From Catajapyx aquilonaris (lineage: Eukaryota): a stretch of 64,000 bases of DNA. The notes beneath the pieces are model-generated. The model did no database searches, had not been told where the DNA came from, and saw only the letters and a list, made by a program, of their open reading frames with translations. The translations under genes and the position numbers were made by a program. Position 1 is the first letter of the stretch; each line of letters begins with the position of its first letter. The stretch covers positions 124,001 to 188,000 of the forward strand of contig JYFJ02000087.1 in assembly GCA_000934665.2 (NCBI GenBank), given 5' to 3'. Positions 4,152-63,498 of this stretch are shown piece by piece.

Positions 4152-7062
4152 TTATTTCCCCTTCTTCTTCTTCTTTTTATTTCCCGCACCAAGCCCCGCC
4201 CTCTGAGCCGCTTTGTCCAACTCATCTCCCCGTGGATCCCTAAACATCCACAAACCACCCAAAATGAATATGTGGCAAGCATGCAAAATGGCACTGCTCC
4301 ACACAGTTGATGGATAGCAGTTCCAGCACAACTCAATCACACCTAAAATAAGCAACCTGAAATGCAATAATGGTCTCAAGTCATATTCATGTTGTTTGGA
4401 AAATTATCAGTTCACTTCAACCACAATGTAGCATGCTTTCACAGCTTATATCACTAGTCTGCTAAAAATCTGACCCGTTAAAATAATAATACCCCATTTA
4501 TATTTGCTTCAGTTGCAAGGCTGGCTCCGAATTGAACCTAACAGTTTACCAATCCAATTTAGAAACAACTGATTCTGCAACATTCTGGGAACAAAGCATC
4601 TTTACAAAAGAACATTTTTGCACAGTGGATGCATCTTTACTATAGCCCTGTCCATTTCAGTGCTGTGAACTAGTTTTGGTGCACACATCAGACTCCCAAA
4701 GGCAATGTCCCACTGTTTACCATTTACCCCATTGAGATGAACCCCACTGCTGTCAAATGGACACTCAAGAAGATTTGGCCAATCCAACGTGGCTTACCCT
4801 GCGATTCAAAACTGGTCGAAAAGAGCCAAATGGACAAGACTAATGAATCAGCAAACCTCTTTATTGTTGATGGTGGCAACAGTGTTGTAATCATCCACAT
4901 TGAAGAAGAGCACTGATTCACAGCTGCATCAGCTGTGAAGAACTTACTCATGTAAAGTGGCTTAGTAACAATATTCTATAAATTAAGTAAAATAAATTTT
5001 TCTTACCTCCACAGGGGCTTCATGGGGATACTCCAAAGCACATATGGGAGTGAGTGAAAGTACCACACATAGAACTGGTAATGAAGTGAGCGGCTCGCAG
5101 CAATCCCAATAAAATTAGCTGTGAACATCGGAAGAAGAAACAGCTGGCAAGAGACAGATATTCCGGTCCCTTCCAAGGTATGGTAGCTCCTCAGATGCCT
5201 TGTAAAAATTTAAAAATTTGACACATCATCCAAATGGTTGAAATGTTATTAACATACCTAATCCAAGTCTTGAGGAACATTAGTATCATCAATACGTGCA
5301 GAGCGAGCAGCAACAAATGAAATCGCCTATCCAGGAAGATCTCCTCTGGAAGAAACCTCCAGTTCACAGTCCACTGGTAGAGGAAGACCCGACCAATGTT
5401 GAAGGCACGCATCACGTACCCCACAGGATTTACCGCCAGGAATGGAATCGCCAGTGTCACCTAAAATATTTCACACGCTATAGCACCAAAAATCAAGTCT
5501 TTGCAAGTGAATCCAACCTGAACAAGAGCACAGATGGTAAGCTGCTTCACAGTTGCTGGTAGTCCAAGACATAATAGGTAAGCAACGAGAAGTGCAGGAG
5601 CAAAGAGGAGGACATTCATCTTGACAGAAACACCCAAACTGCAATTAGAGTTACAAATCAGTGCTATTACGTGTTCTAAAATAATAGGTTGCAATACAGT
5701 ATTTCCAGTGGGTGTTCCTAAATAACCTAGATAAACCAACACTCAACAATTGGCAAGTATCCTATACATTAATCTCTGGGATTGGAGATTCTGCAATTCA
5801 GGGGCATCTCCTCATAAACCACAGTACACATGCATATTCTGTAAATATTCACTGGGGCTAAAGCCAATGTGCATGCACATTACAGCCTATGGAAATGCCT
5901 CTCGAATCATGCAGTTTAATCATTAAGGTTAGACGAAAATCACTACTTAATAGGCACACAGTATCCAGTTATGTTCGCAACTAAGCATTGTCAGAAAACT
6001 AGTGCATGTCACAAAAGCACCCCACAGGGTGCACATTTGGAAAGTGAAATCATGTACTACAATTGGCAATTGAACTGAACAATGACACATGCTCCCTTCA
6101 TCTTTACCAATACTGTCAAATCTAGAAAATGTGGGACATTACTGAAGGGGTTATGCTGAATATTTTTGTGCTCCTACTTTGTCAGTTTACAAAAGGGTCT
6201 TCTAAATCATCAAGCCATTCCAACAGTACATCGAGTGTGAATTGCAGTTTTTCTAGACAATGCCTACAAAAAGAATACTATGCCATTCATCAAGCGTTAT
6301 ATAGTTATACCTGAACAACACGCTTCCCAAACTCCAACGCTCATCTATGAATGCATTAAGGGCAGCGTAGAGAAAGATCATGGCAATAGGGTCGTTGAAG
6401 AGCCGCAGGACAAAAATCGAGTGGATCCTGTACGAAGTGCAGCACAAGAAGACTAGCACATAGGGTGGCACTTTTCTGGACTTGTGGTAGATGCGAAACA
6501 CAAGCGCAATAAGCAGCAAATAGCACCCAGCAAATATGTACTGCGCCAGGGCAATATTGGTTCCCCGGTTGGTTATTAAGTACAGGATGCTGTATATGTA
6601 CACAAATCCAGCGGGGTAAACCAGCGGACCAGTGTCACCTTTCAGCTCCTCATAATCCAAGGTTCCATTCAGGAATCCTTCTACTTCTTGCATATAAGCC
6701 ACCCAGTCAATCTCCGTGTCTGTGAAAAGTGAGAATATAAGTGTCAGCCACCGGGCCCGTTCTAACTGCGTCTCCTGCCCCTCACATTTGACTCTCTGTA
6801 TGATGGCCAGGTTGACAAAGGCCTCCGCCACCAGCAGGACGCAGGCGGCCAGCCAGACGAAGGAGGGGTCTGTGACCAGCCTCCTTGCGAACTCCATGTT
6901 GAAGTACTTGTTGACCAGGTTGGACGCCCTCCTCCTGACCTGCGCCAGCTGCTGCTTCCATTTCCCCTGGCCGCCTCCAGCCTGCCCGTGGGAGCCGCCT
7001 CGACCACCCGGCAAAAGAGGAGGCGGACCAGACCCCGGCGTTCGATTCCTGGGACGCGCCAT
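4152..7062 (-). CDS. ALG3: Dol-P-Man:Man5GlcNAc2-PP-Dol alpha-1,3-mannosyltransferase, 468 aa; exons 7062-6786, 6719-6311, 5638-5518, 5460-5258, 5198-5007, 4356-4152
   Basis: Motifs [48 protein letters not shown] and [11 protein letters not shown]. All introns are GT-AG and in phase. The C-terminal KKGK fits a KKxx ER-retrieval signal. Confidence 0.97.
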
Positions 7063-7224
7063 CTTGGACACGTTTTTTATGCCCCTCGAAGAAAATTATG
7101 CGGTGGCGAGCGGAACTACAAGGAGAAAATGAAGGCGATCGGAGCGACACGCGCGGGATGGAACCGAACAGCTAGAAGCGGGATATTCGATACGTTCACC
7201 AAATTTTGTTTTAATTTTAACGCG

Positions 7225-7686: not shown

Positions 7687-9702
<2,016 letters not shown>

Positions 9703-39300: not shown

Positions 39301-41931
39301 GCGCACTTGCTCAAGTGGTTCAGATTGGAAAATTGCTTTGTATAGAGCTCTTTCTCGGGGAAAAAAATTTGCATTTTAACGGATTGTAGTTTTTTTTCTA
39401 GGAGAACTGTACTGTCCTGGAACCTTCGACGGATGGAGTTGCTGGAATGACACTCCAGCAGGACACACTGCACATACTCCCTGCCCATACTTTATCACCG
39501 GATTCGACTCTTCGAGTAAGTAACTATTCCATAAAACCTGTGTGAGCAAAACACACACACTTGCAGAAGGCTTCCATTTTGATTGCGCTTAATGCAAGTG
39601 GAGAGTAATCCTAGAGCGCACAGTAGGGCCGGAACAGGCCAAATCCGCTAGGCATTAACTAGATAAGTGCTGGCCACATGTTACCCCAAGACAAACATAG
39701 AGCCTGAGGCCAACATTTACGCTCGTAACACGGCCTTTATGTACACAGTCTGGATGACACTGCAGGGAGTAATAAATTGTGAAGGGATGATCATTACACA
39801 ATATAAGTGAATAGGGTCCGGCAAGACCAAGTTTTGGGTCCTAAATACCGCTTAGAGTCGAATTCTCCCATTGTGCTCGTTCCATATAGGAATGGCCCAC
39901 AAAGTCTGTAACGAGGATGGGACTTGGTTCCGCCATCCGCAGTCCAACCAGACTTGGTCTAATTACACCACTTGCATAGACCTGGAGGACCTCAGAGTGA
40001 GTTACTGCACATTTGGATTGTGGTAGAATACAGTTCATCAAGTCCATTCTATTTGCAGTGGAGACAAAGTATCAACACGCTGTACATAGCTGGATATACG
40101 GTCTCATTGGTAGCGCTGCTCCTTTCTCTCTTCATATTTTTCTACTTCAGGTATGGATTGTTGAACTTATTTTTGCTATGACTTATTTTGAGAAGCACTC
40201 ACATATGCAGGATGTTATTGAGATTTCATGGCGCACGCTTTGTGTTCAGCTTACATTGCAATTTGCAACCGATGCAAAGCACACCCAGGTTTTCCTTACG
40301 TATAACGTACAGTACGATATGCCTTAAGGCAAACTGCTTGGTTCATACTATCCATATTACAAGTAAACAAGAGGAATTATAACGTTACCTATAGGTTTGC
40401 ATTGCTAGCCTATATCAGTCAAAACCAATAGCGTCTGCCATTAACGTCAATATTAGTTTCTCTTTGTTATTCTGCATCCGCTATCTAATTAGGCAATTAA
40501 TAAAATAATTAGTGGTTAACCTGCATCCTCTTTGCGGCCAGATCCCTCAAGTGCACTCGAATTATAATCCACAAAAACTTGTTCATCGCCTTCATTTTCA
40601 ACAATTGCATGTGGATGATTTGGTACAAAGAAATAGTGTCCAAGCCTCAGGTGGTTCTGGAAAATGGGGTAAGTCATGCAGCATTTAAATTATGCAAATC
40701 ATCGTATTATTATAAATAATCCTGTTGAGAATGTTTCGCATATTTCAGGTCGAGTGTCAAATCCTACATGTGCTTGTCCAGTATTTCCTGGTGGCCAGCT
40801 ATTTTTGGATGTTCTGCGAAGGTCTTTACTTGCACACGTTGCTAGTTGTAGCTTTTGCGTCTGAAGAACGCATCATGTACGCCTGCTATGGTGTCGGATG
40901 GGGCATACCGACAATCATCACCATAATTTACGCAGCTTGCAGGGGATCTCAAGCAACTGAAAGCACATAGTAAGTAGCCTTGGTAACTATAATAACCTTT
41001 CGTGTCCAACTACTCACCAACATTGATTTTTATTCACTTTAGTTGCTGGATAGAGGAGAGTCACTATACATGGATCCTGTCTATCCCTGTTGCCATATCT
41101 ATGTTGACCAACCTGTTCTTCCTCATCAATATTGTTCGTCTATTAGTGACCAAACTTCGCTCAGGAGCTTGCAGGCCAACCTCAGACCCTTGCCCTTCTT
41201 CCCTCAGAAAGGCGGTAAGTTCGTTTCTTATATTCACAAAATGCAAATTTGCTGAAAATCACAATTTCAGGTAAGGGCAACTTTAATTTTGATCCCTCTA
41301 TTGGGACTCCACTACTTGGTCACACCCTTCCGACCGCAAAGAGATTCACCCATGGAAGTAGTTTACGAAGCCGTCTCCGCCGTCACTTCATCTTTTCAGG
41401 TAATGACTCGCTTACATTGAACTCGCCACCAAATTATAATCCTGAAAATAACAGCGCATTTAAAATTCCAGGGCTTATGTGTAGCGACGCTGTTCTGCTT
41501 TTGCAACGGAGAGGTAATTGATAATTTCCCTGCAAATTCAATATCCCGGCGAGTGTCAGCCCCGTAATGGTAATCATGTCGCACTTGCATGCAATCGCAG
41601 TTTACGTGTCCCAGATGTCAATCACGTGGCCCATGCAAACTTATTGTGTGCCCACAAAATGGGTGCTCCCGTTCACATCCCAACTTGTTGCAGGTTCTAG
41701 CACACGTGAAGAAGAAGTGGAACCAACTGTTATTACGAAATGACAAGGGGCCAAATTCGTATGCTGCGACCACAGTATCAGTAAGGGTGAATTATACCGC
41801 GCCTTACTCATTACTCGTTAAGTTGGCTTATTACACGCCATAATAAACTTATACTGTTTCCGTTTCAGTTTGTGAAATCAACTGCGTATCAAGATGGTCC
41901 CAGTTACGGGGCCACTGACGAGATGGTATAA
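36334..41931 (+). CDS. Class B (secretin family) calcitonin-type GPCR, DH31 receptor/Hector-like, ~419 aa from ATG 36379; exons 36334-36393, 36758-36848, 39402-39515, 39890-39996, 40059-40150, 40542-40668, 40749-40969, 41043-41214, 41271-41399, 41472-41513, 41694-41780, 41869-41931
   Basis: Hormone-binding domain motifs [31 protein letters not shown] and WSNYTTC. 7TM motifs [48 protein letters not shown] and [18 protein letters not shown]. All splice phases are consistent. The start codon is uncertain. Confidence 0.93.
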
Positions 41932-45443: not shown

Positions 45444-47749
45444 TCAGGTGCGAATAATTTTGGTACATCAGTTGCAGCACTTTGTTGTAGAGTATTGTTT
45501 TCCGGAAGAACGTAGTTTTCTGACTCTGTGTCCTTGCTTTTAAAGAGCTTGGTATTGTCCTAGGTCTTGGACCGGGTCCAAAGAACTTGGTGACTAATAT
45601 CACTGCAGCATAAGAGATAAAACTATCGATTCCAATGGAGATAAAAAGAGAGAGACCTTCAAAATATGCCTGGGTGGCCCTCATACACTCTCTGGATCGA
45701 GTACGAGCATGTGCATTCCATTGGGAGCGTAACGTAAGCCGAAAATGCGGGATGTGTAGTGCACCATCATTGTGCGGCGTGATTTATTTCTGTTGTGACC
45801 CAGTCCAAGGCTCTGCCAGTACAGTACAATTCGCCAAGTGACGGAAAACCGTTATGACGGGCCGTTGAAACGAAGCCAACTTGGCCAACTTAACCGCGAT
45901 CCCTAGATCTAGTCACAGCGGTTTGAAATCGGGCTTGAACTATGCTCGAATCCAACAAATAGTTCAGTGCAGTTTAGAAACCTCAGGAATTTCCATTCAG
46001 CACTTTAGAGTGGCAAAGTTACATTATCTGAAGTCCAAAGGTGTATAGCCCACGACCTACTTGTCGTAATGGACGCCAAAAATTGCATGCTATCAGGACA
46101 ATTAGCTAATTACTCGCGAAGGCTGACTTCATTAAAAATAGTAATTTTAAAAATAATGTCGCACATGATGTTCACCAGCAGACCGAGTGATATCCCCCCG
46201 TCCGCACATGCGGAATCCAAAAGCAGTTTGGCAGAGGGACAAGAAAGCATTGACGTTGAGTTTGCATCCACTTGGGAAGAGGCCGCAACACTCAGTTGTT
46301 CCTTTGCTTCCGTCCAAACGAGAAGTTGCACACACTACACTCACGACCATCCCATGACTCTTATTTGACCTTCGCTCGGTAAGAATTACCCTCTAATTAT
46401 CTACACTACTTTTTTCCCCCTCACTGTGCTAATTACACGTAGATGGAAAACTCTCAGTTGTTGAGTTGGACCAAGTGACACGTATGGTTTTGACATTGTG
46501 ATATGAGTATATGAAACATTAGGAGGTGTATTGGGCGGATTCCAATTGCTGGACATTGTACTCTGGACATGCACACAGAAAATAACCAAACCGCAGAGCA
46601 CCAGCTGCATCGAAAATCTATTTAAAAGATTGAATTGTTCATTGATTTCGTAGGATTAGTGGCAGGTCCTCGTCCCATGTTTAAAAGGCCATTCAATTCA
46701 TTATAACGTTATGACAAAAATTCAACGTGTTAAAAAAAAGAGCCACTTATTTCAAGCGTTTAAAAAACAATTTCGAAGAATTTTCTAAAGCACGAAAAAT
46801 AAGAGGCAAAATTACTTGAAAAATAATACCGAGTGTTTATATGTGTTTTTGTACAGCAATAGAAGCGTAAAGCACCGGAAGTGACTAGTTAAGGTCTCCC
46901 TTCAGCTGTCTATCTCGAATCAATTTGCATTCATTATTCCAATCAACACGATGACGCCAGCATTGCATAATATTTTCATACATCACCCATTCAATGTTGT
47001 AGCGTCGTGTTACAAACAATGTCACATTTCGGCTTTTCACGGCTGTTTGGCTACCACAAAGAGGAAAAACACGAACAACTATGTGGATACAATGCGTTAC
47101 ATGCGATGTGAATTTGCGACGCTTTAAATAACAATAACCCTGAAAATGTTATTTACATGACCTCAGTGCATGATTGATCACTTCTCCATTGCCTCCACGT
47201 TATTTAGTACGTGCATTGCGTTTGTACTGTAAGCTCCAATAATAATAAAGCAATAAGAACAGACGTTGTGGTTCATTGTGTTTTAAGTCACTCTCCGGAA
47301 ATCATGGAATAATATAAATTGCCCTTACCATTAGGCTATTCTAATATTACACACCAGAGTGACCATATTCATAATTAAGCTGTACAGTAAAATTAATTCA
47401 AAGCTTGGGTCGAATAAAACTTCGGACCAATAAAAAATGGTTTTTCTAAATACTGTACAAGTTCGAATACTTCCAGCACAATTAGTTGTCAAGGAATCAT
47501 ATCCTGCAGACCTGCACCATGCCTTCCAAAGGCTGCAGAATTGGTTTCGATGAATGACGCTGTAGGAATATCCCAGGTAACTGGACCTGCACTGCCGGAA
47601 TGGCACAGACACAATAGAATAGCGTATTTATATCACTGTAAGAACAGCTGGTTGCATGCTTCCCTCTCAGGTGTTTCCTTCCATACAAAATTAAAGCACT
47701 GTGTGTATGCACAAGATTCCGTCCTGGCAGATGAGCCAGCAGATCAGCC

Positions 47750-49586
47750 ATGAAGATACCTTGCGCCTGTGTCTCTACTTCCTATCTGATCCTAACCTTG
47801 CTGCTTGCCACCATCCTTCGACGAGTGACGGCTAAGATATTCGGAAGTTCCTTCTGGAAAGCAATGGCCGACGAGGCCATCTCCGCTGCAGAGCTGTGCG
47901 GATGCTGCTACGAACTAATCATCAGTAAGAAAACCCATTTTAGTTGTTTCCCCACCAAGAACCATCCTGCTCCAAACTATTCCGCCACAAGACATCACAA
48001 TGCTTAAAGATATTGTCGGCATGCAAATATTTGTGTCTTGAATCCTGCTCATTCCAACCGGGTGCCAAAAGAAGAATTAATCCGAGCTTGTTTCTAGTTG
48101 CTGACAATTACGGAGTGCTGATGTACGCAGCGTTCCTATTCTTGTTGACAATATGGTGGAGCATGAATTGGGGTGATGCCACGGCCTGTCCTTACAATCA
48201 CCTGGAGGACTACCTTGAAGGCAAGACTGACATTAAGTCTGTGATACTCAAAATCGCAGCAGAAATAGCCGGGGGACTTCTGGTCTTCAGGTGATTGCCA
48301 ACATTTACTGTCCCACTAGTAGGCTAGGTGGTTAACACGTGTCCTTTTTAGGTACGTCCAATTTTTGTGGAAGCTGGAATATGCAGAGACACACAAAGGT
48401 CGAGCGTTTGAAGACTGCACAGCAGATTTGCAGGTAAGCGATGTTAATTTTAGCTTGAAAGAGATACTTATGGTAGCAGCTGGTTCTTGGCCAAGGAGTC
48501 GAGCCTCAAGGTTTCCCTCTTTGGGACCTTCAAAGCTCAGCAATTTGTCCTTTTAGTCGCTTATATATAGCGAGAATCTCAAATATTCTAAGTAAATTGC
48601 AACAATTTATTCCACTTTGCCTTTAAAAATTGTGCTGAGAGGAAGGATGCGAGTTATTATGTCTATAGCATGTCCCGCTGCTTATTATTAATGCGAAATA
48701 CTGGTACAGTACACAGCAGGTAATGTTACAATCTGGTTTTCTCTTACGATCCCAAGTGCTCCTTGGGTGCAACAATGGGGGGTGGGAATGTTTAGTGGCT
48801 CAGTGGCACGTATTTAGTGTCGTAATAATGCTACTTCAGAAGCAAGTGGGTGGTGATGGATGTTCACAAACAAATGCAGCCAAGTTGTCTTTGGCCATAT
48901 TTCACTATGATGGAATGAGATGTCAGTGCACCCAGACGTGCGACAACCTTCTCACAACACTGCAGACCCGACCATTTAGCAAGACATAACCAGAATAGTT
49001 GTCGGCTAACCTTGCCAATGTCATCAAATCCACAAATAATAACAATTACTGTAATTGACAGGTAGCAGCCCTCTATGGAGCTCTGGTAGAATGCATAGCC
49101 ACTTGTCTATGTCGCCTTGCGTCGAGGGCAATCGAAGAAGAGGAGCCTCAGAGTGCAGCAGCCATAGATTCATTCATATCTACGGCTCTGGTGGTGGCAG
49201 GTATGAGGACATACACTTCTGTTGGTCTCGTTCTCTTGATACATTGTCTCGTAAAAGTTTACATGCTGCATTCATGTTAAGGAACGTGTAGCCAGTGTAA
49301 TTACGGAGAAAGAGAAATGGTGGCGCCAACATTTTGACGAGGTTTCTAACCCGTTATATTCTATTTCCATTCAGCTTTCAACTACTCAGGAGGATACTTC
49401 AACCCAGTTCTGGCCACCTCCCTCAAGTTCGGGTGCAAGGGGAACACAACAGTGGAGCACCTCGGTGTCTACTGGCTGGGTTCAATACTAGGATCGCTAG
49501 TCTCGGTCTACCTGTACAGGGTGCCTATTATTCGAAACGCACTTCGGAGGCCTTTCGTTCCTTTCAGTAGGCTCAAGACAGCGTAA
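47750..49586 (+). CDS. Unorthodox aquaporin (AQP11/12-like superaquaporin), copy A, 266 aa; exons 47750-47924, 48098-48290, 48352-48433, 49062-49200, 49375-49586
   Basis: AAELCGCCYEL, ADNYG, GDATACPY (first box CPY, 48187-48195), GGYFNPVLATSLKFGC (second box NPV plus the superaquaporin Cys) and VYWLG. This is the typical insect AQP12-like pattern. Confidence 0.94.
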
Positions 49587-49890
49587 AAAGACCGCATCGC
49601 CTTTGAAACGCCTAAGTGCTAAATACTCAATGATGTACCTGTTATGCGTACAATTACACGTTAATTGTCACATGTTGCTTGTTGGTAAAATATATTATTC
49701 TCTAAAATACAGCTTGTGTTTATTCTGACTTCCTAATCTGTCACATGTTACCACAATATTGATCATGAAGCACAACATTCATTGTTACAATCACCTAGGC
49801 CATAAGCAGTTGTTTACACGACGTGTTACACGACGTGTGAGTCCTAAATCACCCTCAAAAAAAAATCGGCGCTCCTCACCCGGGTCAGCC

Positions 49891-51216
49891 ATGAACTCGC
49901 TCGTGGTGTCTTTCGGGTTCTTGTCCCTGACGGTCCTGATCTCCAAGATGTTGGTCACCATAATTAGAAGGAACATCACTGACACAACTGTGAACAGACT
50001 CGCCTGCGAAGTCATCCAGACTGCGGAAGTCTGCGCCTGTCTCGCCGAAGTCGCAACAAGTACGCGCAATAAAAAGATGAGGGTCATTGACACAATCACG
50101 AAGCCAACTGGAGTTCAATCAACCTCTGGTCTCTTTCAGTAAGCACAGTCAGTGTCCCTTCGTCCCTGATAGCCCTGTTCTTGGTGGACTTCTGGTGGCA
50201 AATGCACCCACAGAGGGAGTCCTCACCTGCTGTCCAGATTGACGCTTTCCTACAAGGCCGACAGAACCTGACGGACATGGCGTTGGTCATATTCTCCGAA
50301 CTCATTGGAGCCTTCGCAGCTCTAGCGTGAGTACTAATTGTCTCAAAATATCCAGATGTGCTTGTAACAATTGCAAAATCCGTTACAGATACATCCACTA
50401 CTACTGGAATTTGCAACTGGCGTCTTCCCACGCAGGATTGAAATCCTCTTGCGTTCATGACGGTATGAAGGTAAGGAATCATGTAATTGTGTCTGTAGTT
50501 ATGCCATGCTGAGATTAGGTTTTACAAACTGTGCAGGTACCAGTGTTGTACGGATTTCTGGTAGAGTTTTTCGGCACATTCTTTCTAGAGATGTGCTCTG
50601 GCGCAAATGAGGGGACTCGTCACAAGAGCGCCGAAGCACTCAGGTCGTTGTGTGTGACAGCTGCATTCTTCGCAGGTAAAATGTCTCTACGGGCTATCAA
50701 TGACATCAATTCAACTGGACCCGATCTACTATTTGGTGTGTGCATATCAACCAAGCAGTGGACCAGGTCTAGACCAGGATTGCCAGATAGCCTTAGTTGA
50801 TTTGGCTCCACAAATCTTTGTAATCTAGACCGGGTCCAGTTTCATGTGCATATGAACCAAACAGTGGACCAGGTCTAGACCGGATTGCCTCAGTTGCTTT
50901 GGCTCCGCCAATCAGTCAATCTAGACCGGGTCCAGTCTTCCTTCTGGTGGTGTGATGGCCCTAGAAGGCATCATGTAACCAGTAGTCTAATGGTTTCTTT
51001 TAATCGTCAGGCATGAACCTGAGCGGTGGCTTCTACCATCCGATAGTGGCCTTCTCCCAGTGCTTCGGCTGCAAGAGCCACACCTCTGAAGAGCACTTCA
51101 TGGTCTACTGGGCAGGGCCAATTCTGGGCTGCATGCTGGCCACTGAAGCTCGCAAGTACCAGACAGTCAAAGATATCTTCGAGTGGCCTTTCGCCTTACA
51201 TGTCAAAGTTGAATAA
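49891..51216 (+). CDS. Divergent unorthodox aquaporin, copy B, 260 aa; exons 49891-50059, 50140-50326, 50389-50470, 50537-50675, 51011-51216
   Basis: Same five exons and intron phases (1,2,0,1) as copy A, with identical exon 3 and 4 lengths (82 and 139 nt). Motifs TAEVCACLAE, GFLVEFFGT, SGGFYHPIVAFSQCFGC and EHFMVYWAGP. No stops or frameshifts. Confidence 0.88.
50714..50936. repeat. Composite inverted/tandem repeat in intron 4 of aquaporin B
   Basis: Left end actggacccgatcta is inverted relative to tctagaccgggtccagt (ending 50840 and 50936). A ~100-bp unit is duplicated (50737-50840 and 50844-50936). Confidence 0.75.
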
Positions 51217-51711
51217 GTTGGAGTAGACCGACTTGGTTTCAGAGGAGTGCGAGTGATTGAAAGATAGTGACGAGTGATTCAAGATTGAGCGGAGGGATTC
51301 ATGGCTGAACACCGGTATCAAAATTGTAAATGTGAAGCAATATATTACTTCAAACTCTTGTTCTTTCATAGATGTCAGTTTCCAAAAACAAAGCTGTGGA
51401 TATGTGGGTTTCTTACCACAACAGCTTTGGGTTCGTTTTACGAAGTCCTTGCTTTCTTTAGTTTAAATGTAAAAATCCGGAGTCCATTTTTTTGGTTCGT
51501 GTTCAAAGACAGCCATGAGGTCAGAGCTACCGCCATACAATATTGAAAGAAATTAAATTATCGCAGGCTACTAGCGTGGCCTATACCTGTTGACATTTCA
51601 AACTTGCTAACACTCTGACCGCTTTATCTCAGCTCTTTCCCTAGTTTGCAATCAGTTGTTTCGAAAGGGCCTTACCATATTGATTTACTTTCCTTTTTTT
51701 TGCCACAAATA

Positions 51712-51990
51712 CAGTGAGTGCCCTTACAGGTCAGCAGATAGGCACACATTATGAATAGAATCCTCCTGGAGCCGAATGCACTGGTTCATGGATGTGGCAA
51801 CCTCTCCAGACCTTCCAGGCGGTGCACCCACTCCTGGAGAACTGTGCGCAGTTGTGTGGGAGTGTCCCCCCTCCAAAATCGGTTCCTGCGCTGGAGGCCC
51901 TAGAAAGGTTTGCCACAATCATGTCACGAGTGCATACGGAGGATTATATATCGATAAAGTGTGCCTATTCTGCTGACCCGTAAGACACTG
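51712..51990. mobile_element. Tc1/mariner-type MITE, 279 bp
   Basis: Imperfect TIRs cagtg..cttacaggtcagcagataggcacac and gtgtgcctattctgctgacccgtaagacactg, with TA on both sides (51710-51711 and 51991-51992). Confidence 0.75.
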
Positions 51991-52380
51991 TATTTGTAGC
52001 AAAATAATTGTTAATTAATATGGTGCGGCCATTATTATATCCGATGTGCTTACAGTATAGGAGGATTCCACTGTACTTTGTCAGTTACATTTACCTAAGC
52101 TTATGTGACCTTGAACAAATAATAATAATTTCGTCTGCTGTAGGCTTATTGGCACTTTGCTCATTTGCCTTATTACAAGTTGAACATGATTTTATCCGGT
52201 TATAAAAATTCATTAGAATAAGCTCTGGTAGCCTACAGTACTTCTGTACATTCGTAAACTACTTACTGGACTACTTCCTAGTAGTGAAGTAGTCGTAGTG
52301 CTTTCGTAGTGCCTAGATTGGGGGGGGGGGGGGGGGGGNGGGGGCTATCTCAAATTGCTTTCCAGAGGGCCCCGATGTGG

Positions 52381-53605: not shown

Positions 53606-56600
53606 TTATGACGGAGAAAACACTCCACTGGCTCCACGTGGGCTACGTATTCCACTCAGTGACAAATGGCCATTGCCCATAGATGTAGCTCCATAGCTGA
53701 ACAACATTGGGAAGTACTGAATCCGTCCACCAGACCACACCTGCAATTAGCAAGGCAATGATAAGTAGCAACCGACAACAAACACAGTTCTAAATGCTTA
53801 CCACAGCAAGAAGGGCTCCATTTTTATAGTCTTGCTGAAAGGTGACAGTCACAGGATATTCATCTTTCTGTCCTTGGATGAAGCCGCTACCCAAGAAACC
53901 AATTTAATTTGACAGGATAACTACTGTACCATTTCAAAGATGGCACTTTTTATAGAAACAATAACACGTGATTCATTAAATATTTTAAAATTAAATAATA
54001 ATGCTTTTTCATACCACCCTTCTGCCAAAACACTCGAGCCCAATAAGGGCAAAATATTATTGATTCAACCAGTAAATGGTACAGTGCTGGACATATTAGC
54101 CATCGCTGAATGTTTTTTTCCGGCGGCGGAGGCGGCGGTGTTACCTGGCAACCCTGTCTGGCGGGCCAATTCAAACATCAGCCCATGGAGAGCGCTTCCA
54201 TTGTTGCCACTGTTTACAAATCGAGTGAGTGACGCGGACGACCCAGCCACAGGTCTCTTCTGCCTGCGCACTCACTCACTCGATTTGTAAACAGTGGCAA
54301 CAATGGAAGCGCTCTCCATGGGCTGATGTTTGAATTGGCCCGCCGGACAGGGTTGCCAGGTAACGCCGTCGCCGCTGCCGGAAAAAAACATTCAGCGACG
54401 GCTAATATGTCCAGCACTGTACTGGTGTCACAAACATTTAAATATCTCACTGAAACAATAATATAAGTGTCCACTTACCAAGGGGTTACTTGCAGTACAG
54501 GGGATGTCTTGGTCCTAAATAAGGCAACGAGGGTACTCTCCCTGAAGCATACTGCTAGCCTCTCACCTGACGGATCCCAGGCCATGTCTAAAACAGAGCC
54601 ACCAACCAGACAACCATACCCAGCGTCCACCAGGGCCAAGTCGGCCACTGGTATTGCTGCTTTGGCCCCTCCCCCTTCAGACCTGTCCTCGTGTGGAAAA
54701 ATGAGTGCATATATCAAAGGATCATTTGCAGTGGCAAAAAGTAATGTGGAGCCACAAGGACTCCAGCAGGCAGCGCGCAAGTGGCCCTCCACAGTGCTCC
54801 ACCGCTCGTGTGTCCAGCTATGTGACTCCCAAACACGAAACACGGAACTAGGGGTTGCTGACAAGAGTCGTCTCCCATCCTGGGACCAGGTCAGGTATGA
54901 CACGCCGCCACCACCAACCCTTGTCATTGGGACACTTCGCTCAGTTGATGCCTCCCACACCACCATGGTTTTATCCAAGGCTGATCCAGTAACCAACAAC
55001 TTTCCATCAGGGTGCCAACTAAGAGTGCTCACTGGTGAATGCCCACTGCGGGTGAGGAGTGTGACACAGGTGGAAGACGGGCGTGTCACAACAGAGTTGG
55101 GGTCAACATGCCAGAGAAGTATGCCTTCCCGGCATCCAACTGCAAGCTCTGAGGCAGACAAAGGACGCCATGCCATGCAAGTGACGTCTCGCTGTTGCCG
55201 GTGCTTTAGGACTGGAACTAGTGAGGAGTGCAGGGTGTAGACATGAACAGAGTCGTCACGCAAAGCCACAGCCATCTTTGTCGAGTGCGGATGCCAGGCG
55301 AAACTGCGGACTGGGCTTGAGGGCCAGTCACGCACGTGGCCAAACTCCAAGGACAAAGCTTCAGGAGACATCTAAAAAACAAAGGACACATAGCAGTCAT
55401 CATTTGAAGTGAATAAGTCAGTCAGTTAGGTCATGCCCCTCAAAGCTAGGGAGTTGCCAACAGTCACAGGAAACTAGTTAGCCATATGACCATAGCTTTA
55501 CACTGTTATACACACCATTAGATGTGGATAGAGTGATGTATGTAGCCTCTGTGCCCAGCGAAAAAAGCTCAGCGCCTTCTGTGCAAACCATGACACAGCG
55601 CTTGGAACATCACCTTGAGCAAGTTCTTCCAGTGCTGGGATCATTCCAATCTCATACCTGAAAGGCAATCATTCAAGCAATTCAGAAACAAACAAAAAGG
55701 TGTAATGTATCAAAAGAGCATGACTAACAGCAAACTGACTAGTACTGTACCACCAAGTATTCAGCTCAAGAGAGCAGAAAGAGAAAGACATTGTCATGAT
55801 TATTTCCTGTCTTCTTTTTCTCTTTATACCATCATTACTCCATCTGCCCTATCTATGTATACCAGGGCAAGTCAACAAAGAATGAGAAGGAATTTATTTT
55901 TCGCGGAATACGTTAAGCAGGGTCCAGGTTGATATTGTGTTTTTCGAGTTAGTCCCCATTGAGTTATATGCACTTGGCCCAACACTTCTGGCAGTTGTGG
56001 AAGACATGCCAGAACCCCTTTTTTTGACATCGTCTTCAGAACCACCTTCTTCATAACGGCTGTTGATGATCCAAAACGGTGGCCCCGCAGTACCAATTTC
56101 AGACAAGGGAACAGAAAGCAGTGCAGGGAGCTAGGTCCGGGCTGTATGGCACACATTCGATGTTTCGTTGGGTCAAATATTGGGCAACAACATTGGCGAC
56201 ATGTAGCCATGCAGCAGGATGCAGCTCAGGACGCTTTCGTCGGATGTGTTCGGCCAGGACCTTCAAAACTGCCACGTAATACTTATCAGTGACTGTTGTA
56301 TGCAGGGACACCTCATACTGGTAAACCATTTCCCGGATTTCGAAGAAGGTAATGGTCATTGCCTTTCCTGCTAACTGAACAACCTCGGCCTGAATTGGGT
56401 TATTTTCAGACTGAGCTCGCCTGTTTGCATTCGGGATCTTAGTGGTGAAGCCAACTCTAAACACCTGTAATGATGGAATTCTGGCAGGCCTTGCCATACT
56501 CCGCTACCAGACGCTCTCTAACAATGCAACAGGGTAACATGCAATGGACTACTACTTGTGTACATGTAATTGTTCCATGTCGATGACTTTTCTGTATCAT

Positions 56601-57362: not shown

Positions 57363-58987
57363 ATGGACCGGCGGTGCCTGGGAGGCCATGAGGAGGAGGA
57401 AGAGGGGGCCAGCATGAAGCTCACCACCAACAGGACTCTCTACTGCTACCTGGCTCTCACACTATGGATATTCATCGTGGTGGCCGGTCAGTGCACTTGC
57501 CGTACTCACTGGTATGCAGCGCTGAATCATGATTGTGTCTTGCTGCAGGTCTGTACCGATTCATGTACAGGGATGCCCTCCTGTCCACCCCGCATCCTGC
57601 CAGCCGACCCACTCTGGACAGCTCCATCTTGAAGCCTTTTCTGCGGTCGGGAGGACCAGTTAGCACCAAGAGGGTGGCTAAGCTGTGTAATGAGCCGGAC
57701 AGGATATCGGTTGGGTCAGAAGGGGACGTTCATACCAATTACACCTTGGAAGGGGTGGTTGTGCTTTTTAGGCATGGTGACCGGGGGCCTTTGTCGCACG
57801 TGCGCAACATCAGCTCCATACATTGCTCCGGGCACTATGATCCAATGCTGCCTCCATATTGGAGCTACTTGCAAAATGCGTCGAGAGATCCTGACTTTCT
57901 GCGGTTCCTCGGACCGTTCCAGACGTTTCCGTTGGCACCTGAGCATGATGAGTGTGCGCTTGGGCAATTGACACGACTGGGGGTGTCGCAACTGCTACGT
58001 ACTGGAGAGGTGTTGCGTGAAGCGTACCGCTCCCGGCTACCTACATGGCCACCTGTTACGGTCACGTACAGCACCAGGTATCGACGCACATTCCAGAGTG
58101 CACTGGCATTCCTCTATGCTCTGCTGGGGCCAGCCCACGTCACAATGGTGGCCCTGCGTGAATCACAGGCATTGAGCTTCTGCTTTGATGACTGCGTTTG
58201 CCCTGCAATTGAATCGCTGCGACGTCGCTTCAACAGAAATGCTGCGCAGTACCTCCGATCACATCCAGCCGTGCATGCCTTGGTTCGCTCCTTAGCTGCA
58301 GCCATTTTTGACCATGGTGACCATGCATCCGATATACAGAATCCACGTGTGGTGGAAGATGCATTGTTAGCATACCTTTGCCACAATGCACCACTCCCAT
58401 GTGTGACTCTAGGCACGTGCATTAACATGGAACACGTCAACAACCTACTGGCATACAACGAGTGGGAATCGAAGCAACATGTCAAGAGCAAGCCATTGGT
58501 CCGAAGTTTTGTGCTGCAGTCGTACGGACTGGTGCGAAACATCCTGCAACACCTGCTGAGAATGATGTCTGATGCAGATGTTCCACGAGTCATCGCTTAC
58601 TCTGGACATGACAAGACCATGCAATACCTGATGTTCTCAATGGGCGTTTCAGATGGTTCCTTGCCTCCGTATGCATCCAGGCTTGTGGTCGAGCTATACC
58701 GGCACGGGGCTGCCTCACATCCTGACCGCTTCTACTTCCGAGTGGTGTACAATGGGCGGGACGTTACCTCCAGGGTTGCTTTCTGTCGACGCACTGCATT
58801 CCCTGTCATGGGGGACCTCAACATTGTTGCACCTGACGAGAGGCGAAGACAGGCATACCTTTGCAGGATCGAGAACATTGTGAGGTTCCTACATGACGAC
58901 TACTTTCAACTATTCAATGGCACCAACTTCAAGGATGTGTGCTTTCCTAATGGATTCGCAATGCCGACGAGATTTACTGTGCTTTAG
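57363..58987 (+). CDS. PXYLP1: 2-phosphoxylose phosphatase 1 (histidine acid phosphatase, type II membrane), ~520 aa; exons 57363-57486, 57549-58987; alternative ATG at 57414
   Basis: N-terminal TM anchor LYCYLALTLWIFIVVAGLY, RHGDR catalytic motif, GQLT, STRYRRTFQSA, YSGHD and PYASRLVVELY. Confidence 0.88.
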
Positions 58988-61487: not shown

Positions 61488-62696
61488 TCAGATTCCTCCT
61501 CCTGTCCCAACCTCTCCAAAAACAAGTCTCTTGTATGTCGCATTCATCTGCTCCAAGAATATGAATGTGAGGACTGTGTGAGGCCCAAGTCTGGCATAAT
61601 ATGGTGTGAACCCTTTCCAAAGGGAGAAGAACCCTTCGTGTCGAATGACCTTGCTCAGAACATCCATAGCTCCTCTGTACTCTGGCTTCCCGTCAATGAT
61701 CTTCATGTTCTGCACCCTGCAATTTGGAAAGGTGCATGCTGAGTCAACATCTCGTGATGCCTGCAACTAATTTAGCTCCTACGGCACAAAGATATGACAT
61801 AACCCGTGCAATAGGAATTAATCTCGCCCAAGGATGCACACCGTAGTTTAACTCACAGTTTGTTATGCATTATATTTGTCTCTCCCAGTGCAATGATACA
61901 GGGAGGTACAATAAATGAATGACTGACTGATTGATGGTTAATTAACATAACTTCCATCCTTTTTATGAAGCATTACATGATATTTAAATATCATTGCCAC
62001 ATCTGGACTTCCTGACAGATCAGAAAGGGCGCAAAGTTTTGGCGCACATGAACTCACCTAGTTTTCGCAATGTCTACAGGCATGGAGGCAGCCGTAGTGA
62101 TAAGTCCCGAGATCATGCTGCTGCAAAAGTGAAGAAAGATTCCCTCCCTGAAGTACCCAGTGTTAAACAATATCTGCTTAGCCTGAGAATAGGACGCCAA
62201 CTGAGCCGCATTGACCACCATTGCACGTCCCATGGTAGGAAGGGTTCCTCGCCACAACGTAGCCACTCCTTCCTCCTTGGCCATCCTCGCCAGAGCATTG
62301 ACCACTCCAGTGTAGTTTCTCCTCTGCTCTGGGGGTAGCCTCCCATCTGCAGTCATCCGGATCAGGCACACCTCGGCAGGAGTGCCCACAAAGGCACCTG
62401 CACATCCAGCCGCCATTCCCAAACCAGCCTTCATGGCAAAATTGGGTGGCTGTCCTTGCGGGCCTGAGAACTGCTCAAACAAATAAGTGTACACACCAAG
62501 ACGTGTGGTGGTGTAGGTGGCTTGTCTCAACAGCCCTGCAGAGAGGCCACGATACAGGCCAGACACACCCTCGTTCTTGACCGTCTCCTGGATGACCCTT
62601 AAGCTGGTCTTCCGCTCACCCTTCGTGCCCTCACCACTCAGCTGCATGCGGTTTTTAATCAGATCAAGTGGCTGGACAAATAGCGTTGCTGCCATC
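61488..62696 (-). CDS. SLC25A11: Mitochondrial 2-oxoglutarate/malate carrier, 3' exons 62696-62058 and 61716-61488; first coding exon not found in the window
   Basis: Three carrier signatures (PLDLIKNR, PAEVCLIR, PVDIAKTR), plus RQATYTTTRLG, RAMVVNAAQLASY and KGFTPYYARLGPHT. Confidence 0.96.
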
Positions 62697-63498
62697 CTAG
62701 TGGAATAAGACATGTTACATAAGATGGAGGTGTTTACCCATGCGCTGAATCTATTTCTAGACTCCCCACTCAAAACACTTCATTGCAATCTTGGAACGCA
62801 AGTCTGCAGGGCTGTTCATTCTCAGAGTCAAATATTTTTCAACCGTAATCTAAGGCAAGTGAACCATGCAATTTTTCCATCTCAATGACCACACCCTGAA
62901 TACAAAGCCTTGCACCTTATCTACCAGTGACACAGGGTGTAAATTTTGCATCAAGTTTTACCACATTGTAAAACCATGGTGTAAAAATGAGACTCACCTG
63001 GGGATAAATTTGCAAATAAAGGCGCACCTTTTAAGTAAAAAAAAAACAACAATATACAAGTGCACCTTTTTTTTTTTTGTAAATTCAACCCTGGTTTAAA
63101 AATAATATGATATCCTAAATGTTTTAAGATGTAAACAAGAGCAATTTATTCCTACTAAATTACACCCAGGATCACCATTCAAGGCCACCATATGGCTCAA
63201 TACTATAGGCACTATTGATGTCTATGAACAGGCCTTCCTCCTGATATAAGCAGTGCAACTTTCCTGTGCTAAATTCATTCTGTACAGTAACAAAAGAGAC
63301 AAAAAGACACCGTCATTTAATTAATTTCCAGCAGTATGTCACTTGCACTTTGCACAATTAAATACCTCTAAGAAAATGTGATAGCGTGCAAAAAATTTGG
63401 CATGAATTGTGAATTCACAAGCTACAACACAGTCATTGTGTTAGTTTTTCATTTACTCATGAGAAAAATATTTAAAAAATTAAACAAAACAAAATTAA

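What the first reader, a model, noticed from the sequence alone, without database searches (positions are those of the whole stretch)
49891..51216. Intact aquaporin paralog with no Asn in either NPA box (SPA / HPI)
Seen: this is a tandem duplicate starting 305 bp after the copy A stop, with identical intron phases, an open frame, retained TM Glu residues, the superaquaporin Cys and VYW.GP. Its boxes read SPA (50223-50231) and HPI (51037-51045), against CPY and NPV in copy A. Established: the NPA asparagines orient water and help exclude protons and cations; AQP11/12-like channels normally degrade the first box but keep Asn in the second. Inference: strong divergence without disabling mutations suggests a maintained, neofunctionalised channel, with a titratable His in the pore centre (pH-gated, altered solute range, or a non-conducting regulatory subunit of copy A).
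Basis: partly seen in the sequence, partly recalled or inferred. Interest (0 to 1): 0.75.

Follow-up and report, generated by a model that had tools for sequence, protein, structure and literature searches.

The report
Asparagine-free aquaporin-12-like gene duplicate
This animal has an intact, fast-evolving second copy of an intracellular water-channel gene in which histidine replaces the last pore asparagine, a rare swap that also turns up in a scallop and in unnamed lineages, so it is a real but not unique variant whose transport properties are untested.

Summary
Observation confirmed. Copy B (49891-51216, five exons, 260 aa) is an intact tandem paralog of a typical arthropod Aqp12-like superaquaporin (copy A), with boxes SPA/HPI against CPY/NPV. 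It looks maintained: open frame at 30% identity to A, pS above pN, GC-rich four-fold sites, both disulfide cysteines kept. Three corrections. (1) Box 1 already lacks Asn in this family, so B lost one Asn, not two. (2) N-to-H is one of 42 changes at 75 conserved columns. (3) It is not unique: box-2 His occurs in 6 of 88 aquaporin-type hits, including scallop XP_033762082.1 (SPL/HPA) and an Asn-free clade keeping His at 44-64% identity. Best reading: an intracellular channel with the AQP11 fold and a remodelled pore, where His is a bulkier helix cap tolerated by the wide superaquaporin pore; conductance and selectivity are probably altered. pH gating or a regulatory-subunit role is possible but unsupported. 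Expression, read support for the His codon and a sure ortholog could not be obtained. The scan noted NPA-less tandem aquaporin paralogs before, in archaea. New variant of a known kind.

The parts
47750..49586 (+). Copy A: typical arthropod Aqp12-like superaquaporin, 5 exons, 266 aa, boxes CPY/NPV
   Evidence: model; 41-61% identity to 64 homologues, matches 72 of 75 conserved columns
49891..50059 (+). Copy B exon 1: N-terminal hydrophobic helix (H0-like) and H1; Glu40, Glu46, Leu51, Glu53
   Evidence: (hhalign probability 95.9)
50140..50326 (+). Copy B exon 2: H2, loop B, H3
   Evidence: hhalign probability 91.4
50187..50189 (+). Asp73 in H2 (Thr in 63 of 64 close homologues; aligns to AQP11 Ser86); pore-facing by inference
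50223..50231 (+). Box 1, SPA (family CPY; AQP11 NPC)
50389..50470 (+). Copy B exon 3: end of H3 and loop C, with Cys140 (50450-50452), likely disulfide partner of Cys213; one column off the family Cys
   Evidence: disulfide Cys155-Cys227 in AQP11 (PMC12857728)
50537..50675 (+). Copy B exon 4: H4-H5; Glu156 kept; Glu164/Arg182 where 62 or more of 64 homologues have Arg/Asp; Phe190 at a filter position (Val in 64 of 64)
51011..51216 (+). Copy B exon 5: loop E, half-helix HE, H6, stop; Cys213 at 51070-51072
51037..51045 (+). Box 2, HPI; His202 at the N-cap of HE, position of AQP11 Asn216 (Asn in 64 of 64 close homologues)

Best explanation
B is an old tandem paralog of the arthropod Aqp12-like channel that selection has kept as an intracellular membrane protein with the AQP11 fold, while its pore lining was extensively rebuilt. 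Shown: intact gene, selection signatures, scaffold residues kept, His at the box-2 Asn position. His is a bulkier stand-in for Asn, one base change away, and fits because superaquaporin pores are wide (at least 4 A in AQP11), which would explain why it recurs in this subfamily. With Leu51 and Phe190 at the luminal filter, B most likely still conducts small neutral solutes in ER or vesicle membranes, through a narrower pore with lower flux and a different solute range than A. Sensitivity to acid pH would be a secondary property.
For: Open frame at 79/259 identity to A. Random decay of A to 31% identity left no stop in 0 of 2000 runs, and kept 33 or more conserved columns in 1 of 2000. pS 0.75 vs pN 0.49. 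GC at four-fold sites 0.59 vs window 0.43, p=3e-4. B=A at 34/74 conserved vs 43/183 variable columns, p=5e-4. Both disulfide Cys kept, and a possible Arg/Asp to Glu/Arg charge swap between H4 and H5. Scallop P0102 (SPL/HPA) models at pLDDT 88 with both half-helices starting at the box Pro; its best structural match is AQP11 9vxw, TM 0.74 by target. His is kept in all 29 sequences of the P0161 clade that cover box 2, at 44-64% identity between its three clusters, while the third box residue varies. Arthropod Aqp12L conducts with one Asn-free box family-wide (CPY: PMC4539701; Artemia transport: PMC13673172).
Against: No transport data exist for B or any His-box protein that I found. B lost 42 of 75 conserved columns, so it could be non-conducting. 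Changes at filter and box positions (7 of 9 differ) are not clearly denser than elsewhere (42 of 75). The best true hit to B exon 5 (P0083, 47% over 51 columns) keeps Asn, so if it is a B ortholog the His is not essential. Full-length B was not folded; pore-facing assignments rest on alignment at about 20-30% identity. The His-box hit rate is inflated because the query carried His.
Confidence: 0.5

Rival explanations
1. B is folded but effectively non-conducting: a structural or trafficking protein, or a subunit that co-assembles with A in a trimer and tunes it.
For: Scaffold residues kept while boxes and filter gain bulk. Hetero-oligomer regulation is known for plant PIP1/PIP2 (PMC6262540, passages). 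Adjacent to A, 304 bases away.
Against: Identity to A in the AQP11 interface helices H0, H2, H4, H5 is 7/27, 7/18, 8/21, 7/19, with no clear excess over the 30% average. His is conserved in another lineage while the neighbouring residue varies, which suggests a constrained pore position.
Confidence: 0.18
2. His202 is a selected titratable centre: with Asp73 across the pore it gates the channel by organelle pH or relays protons for weak acids or bases, as the central His of formate-nitrite transporters does.
For: His at the pore-centre position; new Asp73 in H2 where 63 of 64 homologues have Thr; the P0161 clade has His at both positions; His box recurs in four groups; FNT mechanism as described in PMC4150397 (passages).
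Against: Established electrostatics: the positive ends of two helix dipoles meet here (PMC4150397), which should lower the His pKa (inference). Scallop P0102 has Val at position 73. Gln and Ser also replace the box-2 Asn (4 of 88 hits), as tolerance rather than a special role for His would predict.
Confidence: 0.15
3. B is a largely redundant duplicate under weak constraint; N-to-H is a tolerated drift change without functional meaning.
For: End branch 2.5-4.5 vs 0.36-0.38 for A; 42 of 75 conserved columns changed; no close ortholog among 93 hits.
Against: Synonymous sites are saturated, so the frame survived a long time; conserved columns are preferentially kept; codon bias is stronger than in A.
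Confidence: 0.11
4. B is a recently dead gene, or the His codon is an assembly error.
For: One assembly only; AAT to CAT is a single base; no reads could be examined.
Against: No stop, frameshift or broken splice site; start context shared with A; the same substitution exists in other taxa; the other 41 changes do not depend on this base.
Confidence: 0.06

Closest known systems
Arthropod Aqp12-like superaquaporins (salmon louse Aqp12L1/L2, PMC4539701; Artemia Aqp12L, PMC13673172; barnacle Aqp12, PMC5513457)
   Same: Asn-free first box, no ar/R arginine, Cys nine residues after box 2; paralog pairs are known (louse). Copy A is a plain member.
   Different: B has His in box 2 (Asn in 64 of 64 close homologues), is only 24-30% identical to them, and is far more diverged from its partner (30%) than the louse pair (61.8%).
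Human AQP11 (PDB 9vxw; PMC12857728)
   Same: N-terminal hydrophobic helix, two Cys at the loop C / loop E disulfide positions, aliphatic residue in place of the filter Arg.
   Different: AQP11 keeps Asn in both boxes (NPC/NPA). Filter Thr/Val/Val/Ala/Leu reads Leu/Leu/Phe/Gly/Val in B by alignment. Trimer state of B untested.
Pecten maximus aquaporin-11-like XP_033762082.1 (P0102) and unnamed His-box groups (P0161/P0200/P0201; P0101/P0111/P0119)
   Same: His at the box-2 Asn position; P0102 (SPL/HPA) and the P0161 clade also have no Asn in box 1.
   Different: 18-22% identical to B for the full-length ones. B+P0102 as one clade is rejected only marginally (p-AU 0.047); kinship of B with the P0119 group is unresolved (p-AU 0.60). 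No functional data found.
Natural Asn-exchange aquaporins: Fasciola FgAQP1/2 (TAA) and Burkholderia SPA aquaglyceroporin (PMC5436202, passages)
   Same: Ser or Thr in place of a box Asn; FgAQP1 still passes water, twice as fast when Asn is restored.
   Different: One box is described as changed there; B has Asn in neither, and His is much bulkier.

Membership tests
Superaquaporin (AQP11/12-like) | Cys in the pattern box2-x8-C (PMC11316224, PMC8700629) | tested here: met
   Cys213 follows HPI by 8 residues
Superaquaporin (AQP11/12-like) | Loop C Cys for the disulfide (PMC12857728) | tested here: met
   Cys140, one alignment column from the family Cys; the bond itself is not shown
Superaquaporin (AQP11/12-like) | No ar/R arginine after box 2 | tested here: met
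   Val205
Superaquaporin (AQP11/12-like) | Deviant first box | tested here: met
   SPA aligns with CPY
Superaquaporin (AQP11/12-like) | Asn in the second box (usual, not universal) | tested here: not met
   His202; Asn in 64 of 64 close homologues, absent in 10 of 88 aquaporin-type hits to B exon 5
Superaquaporin (AQP11/12-like) | N-terminal hydrophobic helix H0 | tested here: met
   Hydropathy and profile alignment of exon 1
Superaquaporin (AQP11/12-like) | Phylogenetic placement with Aqp12-like proteins | tested here: met
   B falls in the SH-aLRT 97 group holding A and the insect and crustacean rows (quick tree, long branch, no non-superaquaporin outgroup); same intron phases as A
Superaquaporin (AQP11/12-like) | Intracellular location; permeation of water, H2O2, urea, ammonia | not testable with these tools
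   needs expression
Superaquaporin (AQP11/12-like) | Trimer | not tested
   no complex prediction was run
Canonical aquaporin / aquaglyceroporin | Two Asn boxes and ar/R arginine | tested here: not met
   Pfam MIP 13.3 bits on exon 5, cut-off 25; the typical homologue P0004 is also below it, 15.5
Pseudogene | Stops, frameshifts, broken splice sites or neutral divergence | tested here: not met
FNT-like histidine proton relay (works-like claim only) | Central His with a polar partner that titrates substrate | tested here: inconclusive
   His202 and Asp73 by alignment only; no coordinates, pKa or assay

The most novel reading that the evidence does not exclude
B is one of a recurrent, apparently undescribed class of Asn-free 'His-box' superaquaporins (this animal, a scallop, two unnamed lineages) in which a titratable His at the pore centre, here facing Asp73, turns an aquaporin fold into a pH-switched channel or a proton-coupled weak-acid/base conduit of acidic organelles such as yolk platelets.
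Probability: 0.13. Interest if true: 0.75.

Novelty: new variant of a known kind. Interest (0 to 1): 0.45.

Why it matters
The NPA asparagines are the best-known signature of aquaporins and are credited with orienting water and excluding cations. Maintained animal genes with neither Asn, and a His that recurs at the same site, offer natural test cases for what the boxes do in the wide-pore AQP11/12 subfamily, whose substrates are still debated. The A/B pair gives a matched control from one locus. If the His titrates, it would be a gating or coupling mechanism at the pore centre that I did not find described for aquaporins.

Tried and rejected
RNA evidence: no RNA holder listed for 47700-51300; this is no evidence on expression, and no reads could be laid. 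Ortholog search: the word-based search with B exon 5 gave 1 candidate and no hit; phmmer gave 93 hits, best true one 48% identity; its top hit P0082 and four others are unrelated repeats or chance. The His-box profile search returned only 6 proteins. Further Aqp12L copies in the genome: none beyond A and B (three weak matches at E 0.1-0.4 not examined). Alignments of separate B exons to full-length homologues were poor or partly wrong and were not used as queries. dN/dS as a number: pS is at the saturation limit, so the value near 0.2 is not reliable. Independent origin of the His: not proven; all full-length His proteins as one clade p-AU 0.062, B+scallop 0.047; on 94 columns neither B+A (0.31) nor B+P0119+P0173 (0.60) is rejected. 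The careful tree did not finish; quick trees were used. Full-length B was not folded; model coordinates are not returned, so the His-Asp geometry is untested. ESM Atlas gave only generic MIP clusters. Rejected: uniqueness of the His box; loss of two asparagines in B's own history; pseudogene status.

Full report
Observation. The window holds two five-exon aquaporin genes in tandem on the + strand. Copy A spans 47750-49586 (266 aa) and copy B 49891-51216 (260 aa). All introns are GT-AG with phases 1,2,0,1 in both, and 304 bases separate the genes. B reads SPA at 50223-50231 and HPI at 51037-51045. A and B share 79 of 259 aligned residues. Searches of the genome with B exon 5 and with a full-length homologue found only these two loci at significant scores.

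Family. A exon 5 retrieved 81 proteins, named aquaporin-11/12-like of insects and crustaceans where a name is given. I aligned the 64 of 81 that are 240-335 aa long. A is 41-61% identical to them and B 24-30%. Of 75 columns at least 90% conserved, A matches 72 and B 33. In quick trees B lies on a long branch (2.5-4.5 against 0.36-0.38 for A) among the Aqp12-like rows. A+B as sisters is not rejected on the full length (log-likelihood 1.07 higher, p-AU 0.545). On 94 C-terminal columns neither A+B (0.31) nor B with an unnamed His-box group (0.60) is rejected. So B is either a lineage-specific duplicate or a member of an older paralog group. CPY/NPV is the described state of arthropod Aqp12L (PMC4539701, passages), so box 1 in B changed from Cys to Ser and only one Asn was lost.

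Is B maintained? Between A and B pS is 0.75 (saturated) and pN 0.49. B equals A at 34 of 74 conserved and 43 of 183 variable columns (p=5e-4). Random substitution of A down to 31% identity left an open frame in 0 of 2000 runs and kept 33 or more conserved columns in 1 of 2000. Four-fold sites in B are 59% GC against 43% for the window (p=3e-4; A 47%, not significant), and both genes have the same six bases before the ATG. This supports long purifying selection. It does not show present expression, which I could not test.

Anatomy against AQP11. The only solved relative found by sequence is human AQP11, 9vxw. I read parts 1-3 of 6 of its paper (PMC12857728): trimer, extra helix H0, pore at least 4 A wide, filter Thr61/Val82/Val204/Ala213/Leu219, disulfide Cys155-Cys227. 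Mapped through P0004, His202 sits at Asn216 and Ser85 at Asn99. The filter reads Leu/Leu/Phe/Gly/Val in B against Cys/Leu/Val/Gly/Leu in A. Cys213 matches Cys227, and Cys140 lies one column from Cys155. Asp73 replaces a Thr found in 63 of 64 homologues. The H4/H5 pair Arg/Asp appears as Glu164/Arg182 in B only among 94 rows, which may be a charge swap; contact between them is inferred. A model of B exon 5 alone (pLDDT 71, pTM 0.41) starts a helix at the Pro after His202. Seven of nine box and filter positions differ from the family, not clearly more than the 42 of 75 overall, so the pore is not shown to be the special target of change.

Not unique. phmmer with B exon 5 gave 93 hits and no close ortholog. 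Five are unrelated; of the other 88, box 2 starts with Asn in 78, His in 6, Ser in 2 and Gln in 2. The query carried His, so this share is inflated; the set retrieved with A had Asn in 64 of 64. The His proteins include Pecten maximus XP_033762082.1 with SPL/HPA, and Agrilus planipennis XP_018333660.1 has SPS with a degenerate first box. An unnamed clade (P0161, P0200, P0201, 44-64% identical) has His in all 29 of 30 listed sequences that cover box 2, with HPV, HPM or HPG and no Asn in box 1; only 15 of the 67 members of one cluster were listed. A second unnamed group has HPV in 25 of 25 fragments. The scallop protein models confidently (pLDDT 88, pTM 0.80) with both half-helices starting at the box Pro and matches AQP11 best. 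Independent origins are likely but only marginally supported (p-AU 0.047 and 0.062). Against a fixed role for the His, the best true hit to B, P0083, keeps Asn.

Mechanism. Shown: an intact, selected gene with the scaffold kept and His at the HE cap. From the literature: the box Asn residues cap the half-helices and, with the helix dipoles, filter cations (PMC4150397, PMC6262540, passages); a Thr-for-Asn natural variant still passes water (PMC5436202, passages); Artemia Aqp12L is intracellular and passes water, H2O2, urea and methylamine but not glycerol (PMC13673172, abstract and section 6), as do vertebrate AQP12s (PMC13344155, first parts of sections 6 and 7). Inferred: neutral His can accept the cap hydrogen bond and donate one to water, like a larger Asn, and fits only a wide pore. 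I put 0.5 on a conducting channel with altered flux and range, 0.18 on a non-conducting or regulatory role, 0.15 on a selected pH gate or proton relay, 0.11 on relaxed drift and 0.06 on a dead gene or base error. From recall, not from a call: Wree et al. 2011 (PMID 21205205, title seen in reference lists only) found Ser interchangeable with Asn for permeation but leaky to sodium; Ishibashi 2006 (PMID 16579962, title only) shows nematode superaquaporins with His in box 1 or Asp in box 2.

What is known. Degenerate boxes and duplications in invertebrate superaquaporins are described in general terms (PMC12771848 passages and section 21; PMC8925068, PMC5513457, PMC8700629, PMC11316224 passages). 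Searches showed no paper naming a His at box 2, but the library lacks most subscription papers, and figures I could not see (Fig. S10m of PMC12771848, Fig. 5 of PMC8925068) may show bivalve His boxes. No supplement was read. PMC10622946 and PMC8836214 (passages) added nothing decisive. An earlier scan note (e1-3798914, not tested here) reports archaeal tandem paralogs without NPA motifs.

Verdict. The feature is real and the gene is probably functional. It is a new variant of a known kind: a strongly diverged Aqp12-like paralog and one example of a recurrent His-box state. Interest 0.45.

Noticed in passing
window 50739-50936 (intron 4 of copy B): A unit of about 100 bases is tandemly duplicated (spacings 96-106, 82-100% identity in its parts); no other copy found in the genome.
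   Followed up: partly
window 47744-47752 and 49885-49893: Both genes have the same six bases before the ATG although synonymous sites are saturated; a donor-like site at 49837 could open a 52-base intron in the 5' UTR of B.
   Followed up: no
window 49587-49890: No canonical AATAAA between A and B, only variants at 49689 and 49706; little room for a separate promoter, so read-through or shared regulation is possible.
   Followed up: no
window about 41000-41930, + strand: End of a secretin-family GPCR gene (Pfam 7tm_2) about 6 kb upstream of copy A; by recall it resembles calcitonin/DH31 diuretic-hormone receptors.
   Followed up: partly
window 51695-52007: Two nested inverted-repeat pairs (22 and 20 bases), MITE-like, just downstream of B.
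   Followed up: no
window 54478-55371 (-), 57533-58984 (+), 62057-62779 (-), 6256-7095 (-), 8109-8630 (-): Neighbours by Pfam: Aladin, histidine phosphatase, mitochondrial carrier, ALG3, GAPDH.
   Followed up: no
G000 contigs C203, C98, C2273, C1481, C5851, C70, C6526: 26 exon matches to Pfam MIP on 7 contigs, with a cluster on C203; the boxes my pattern picked up on C203, C98 and C6526 were canonical NPA.
   Followed up: partly
P0156 (Agrilus planipennis XP_018333660.1) and P0163 (unnamed): Other superaquaporins with no Asn in either box: SPS and QPM in box 2.
   Followed up: partly
P0083 (unnamed fragment): Best true hit to B exon 5 (47% over 51 columns), shares some C-terminal residues with B but keeps Asn; a possible B-type paralog elsewhere.
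   Followed up: partly
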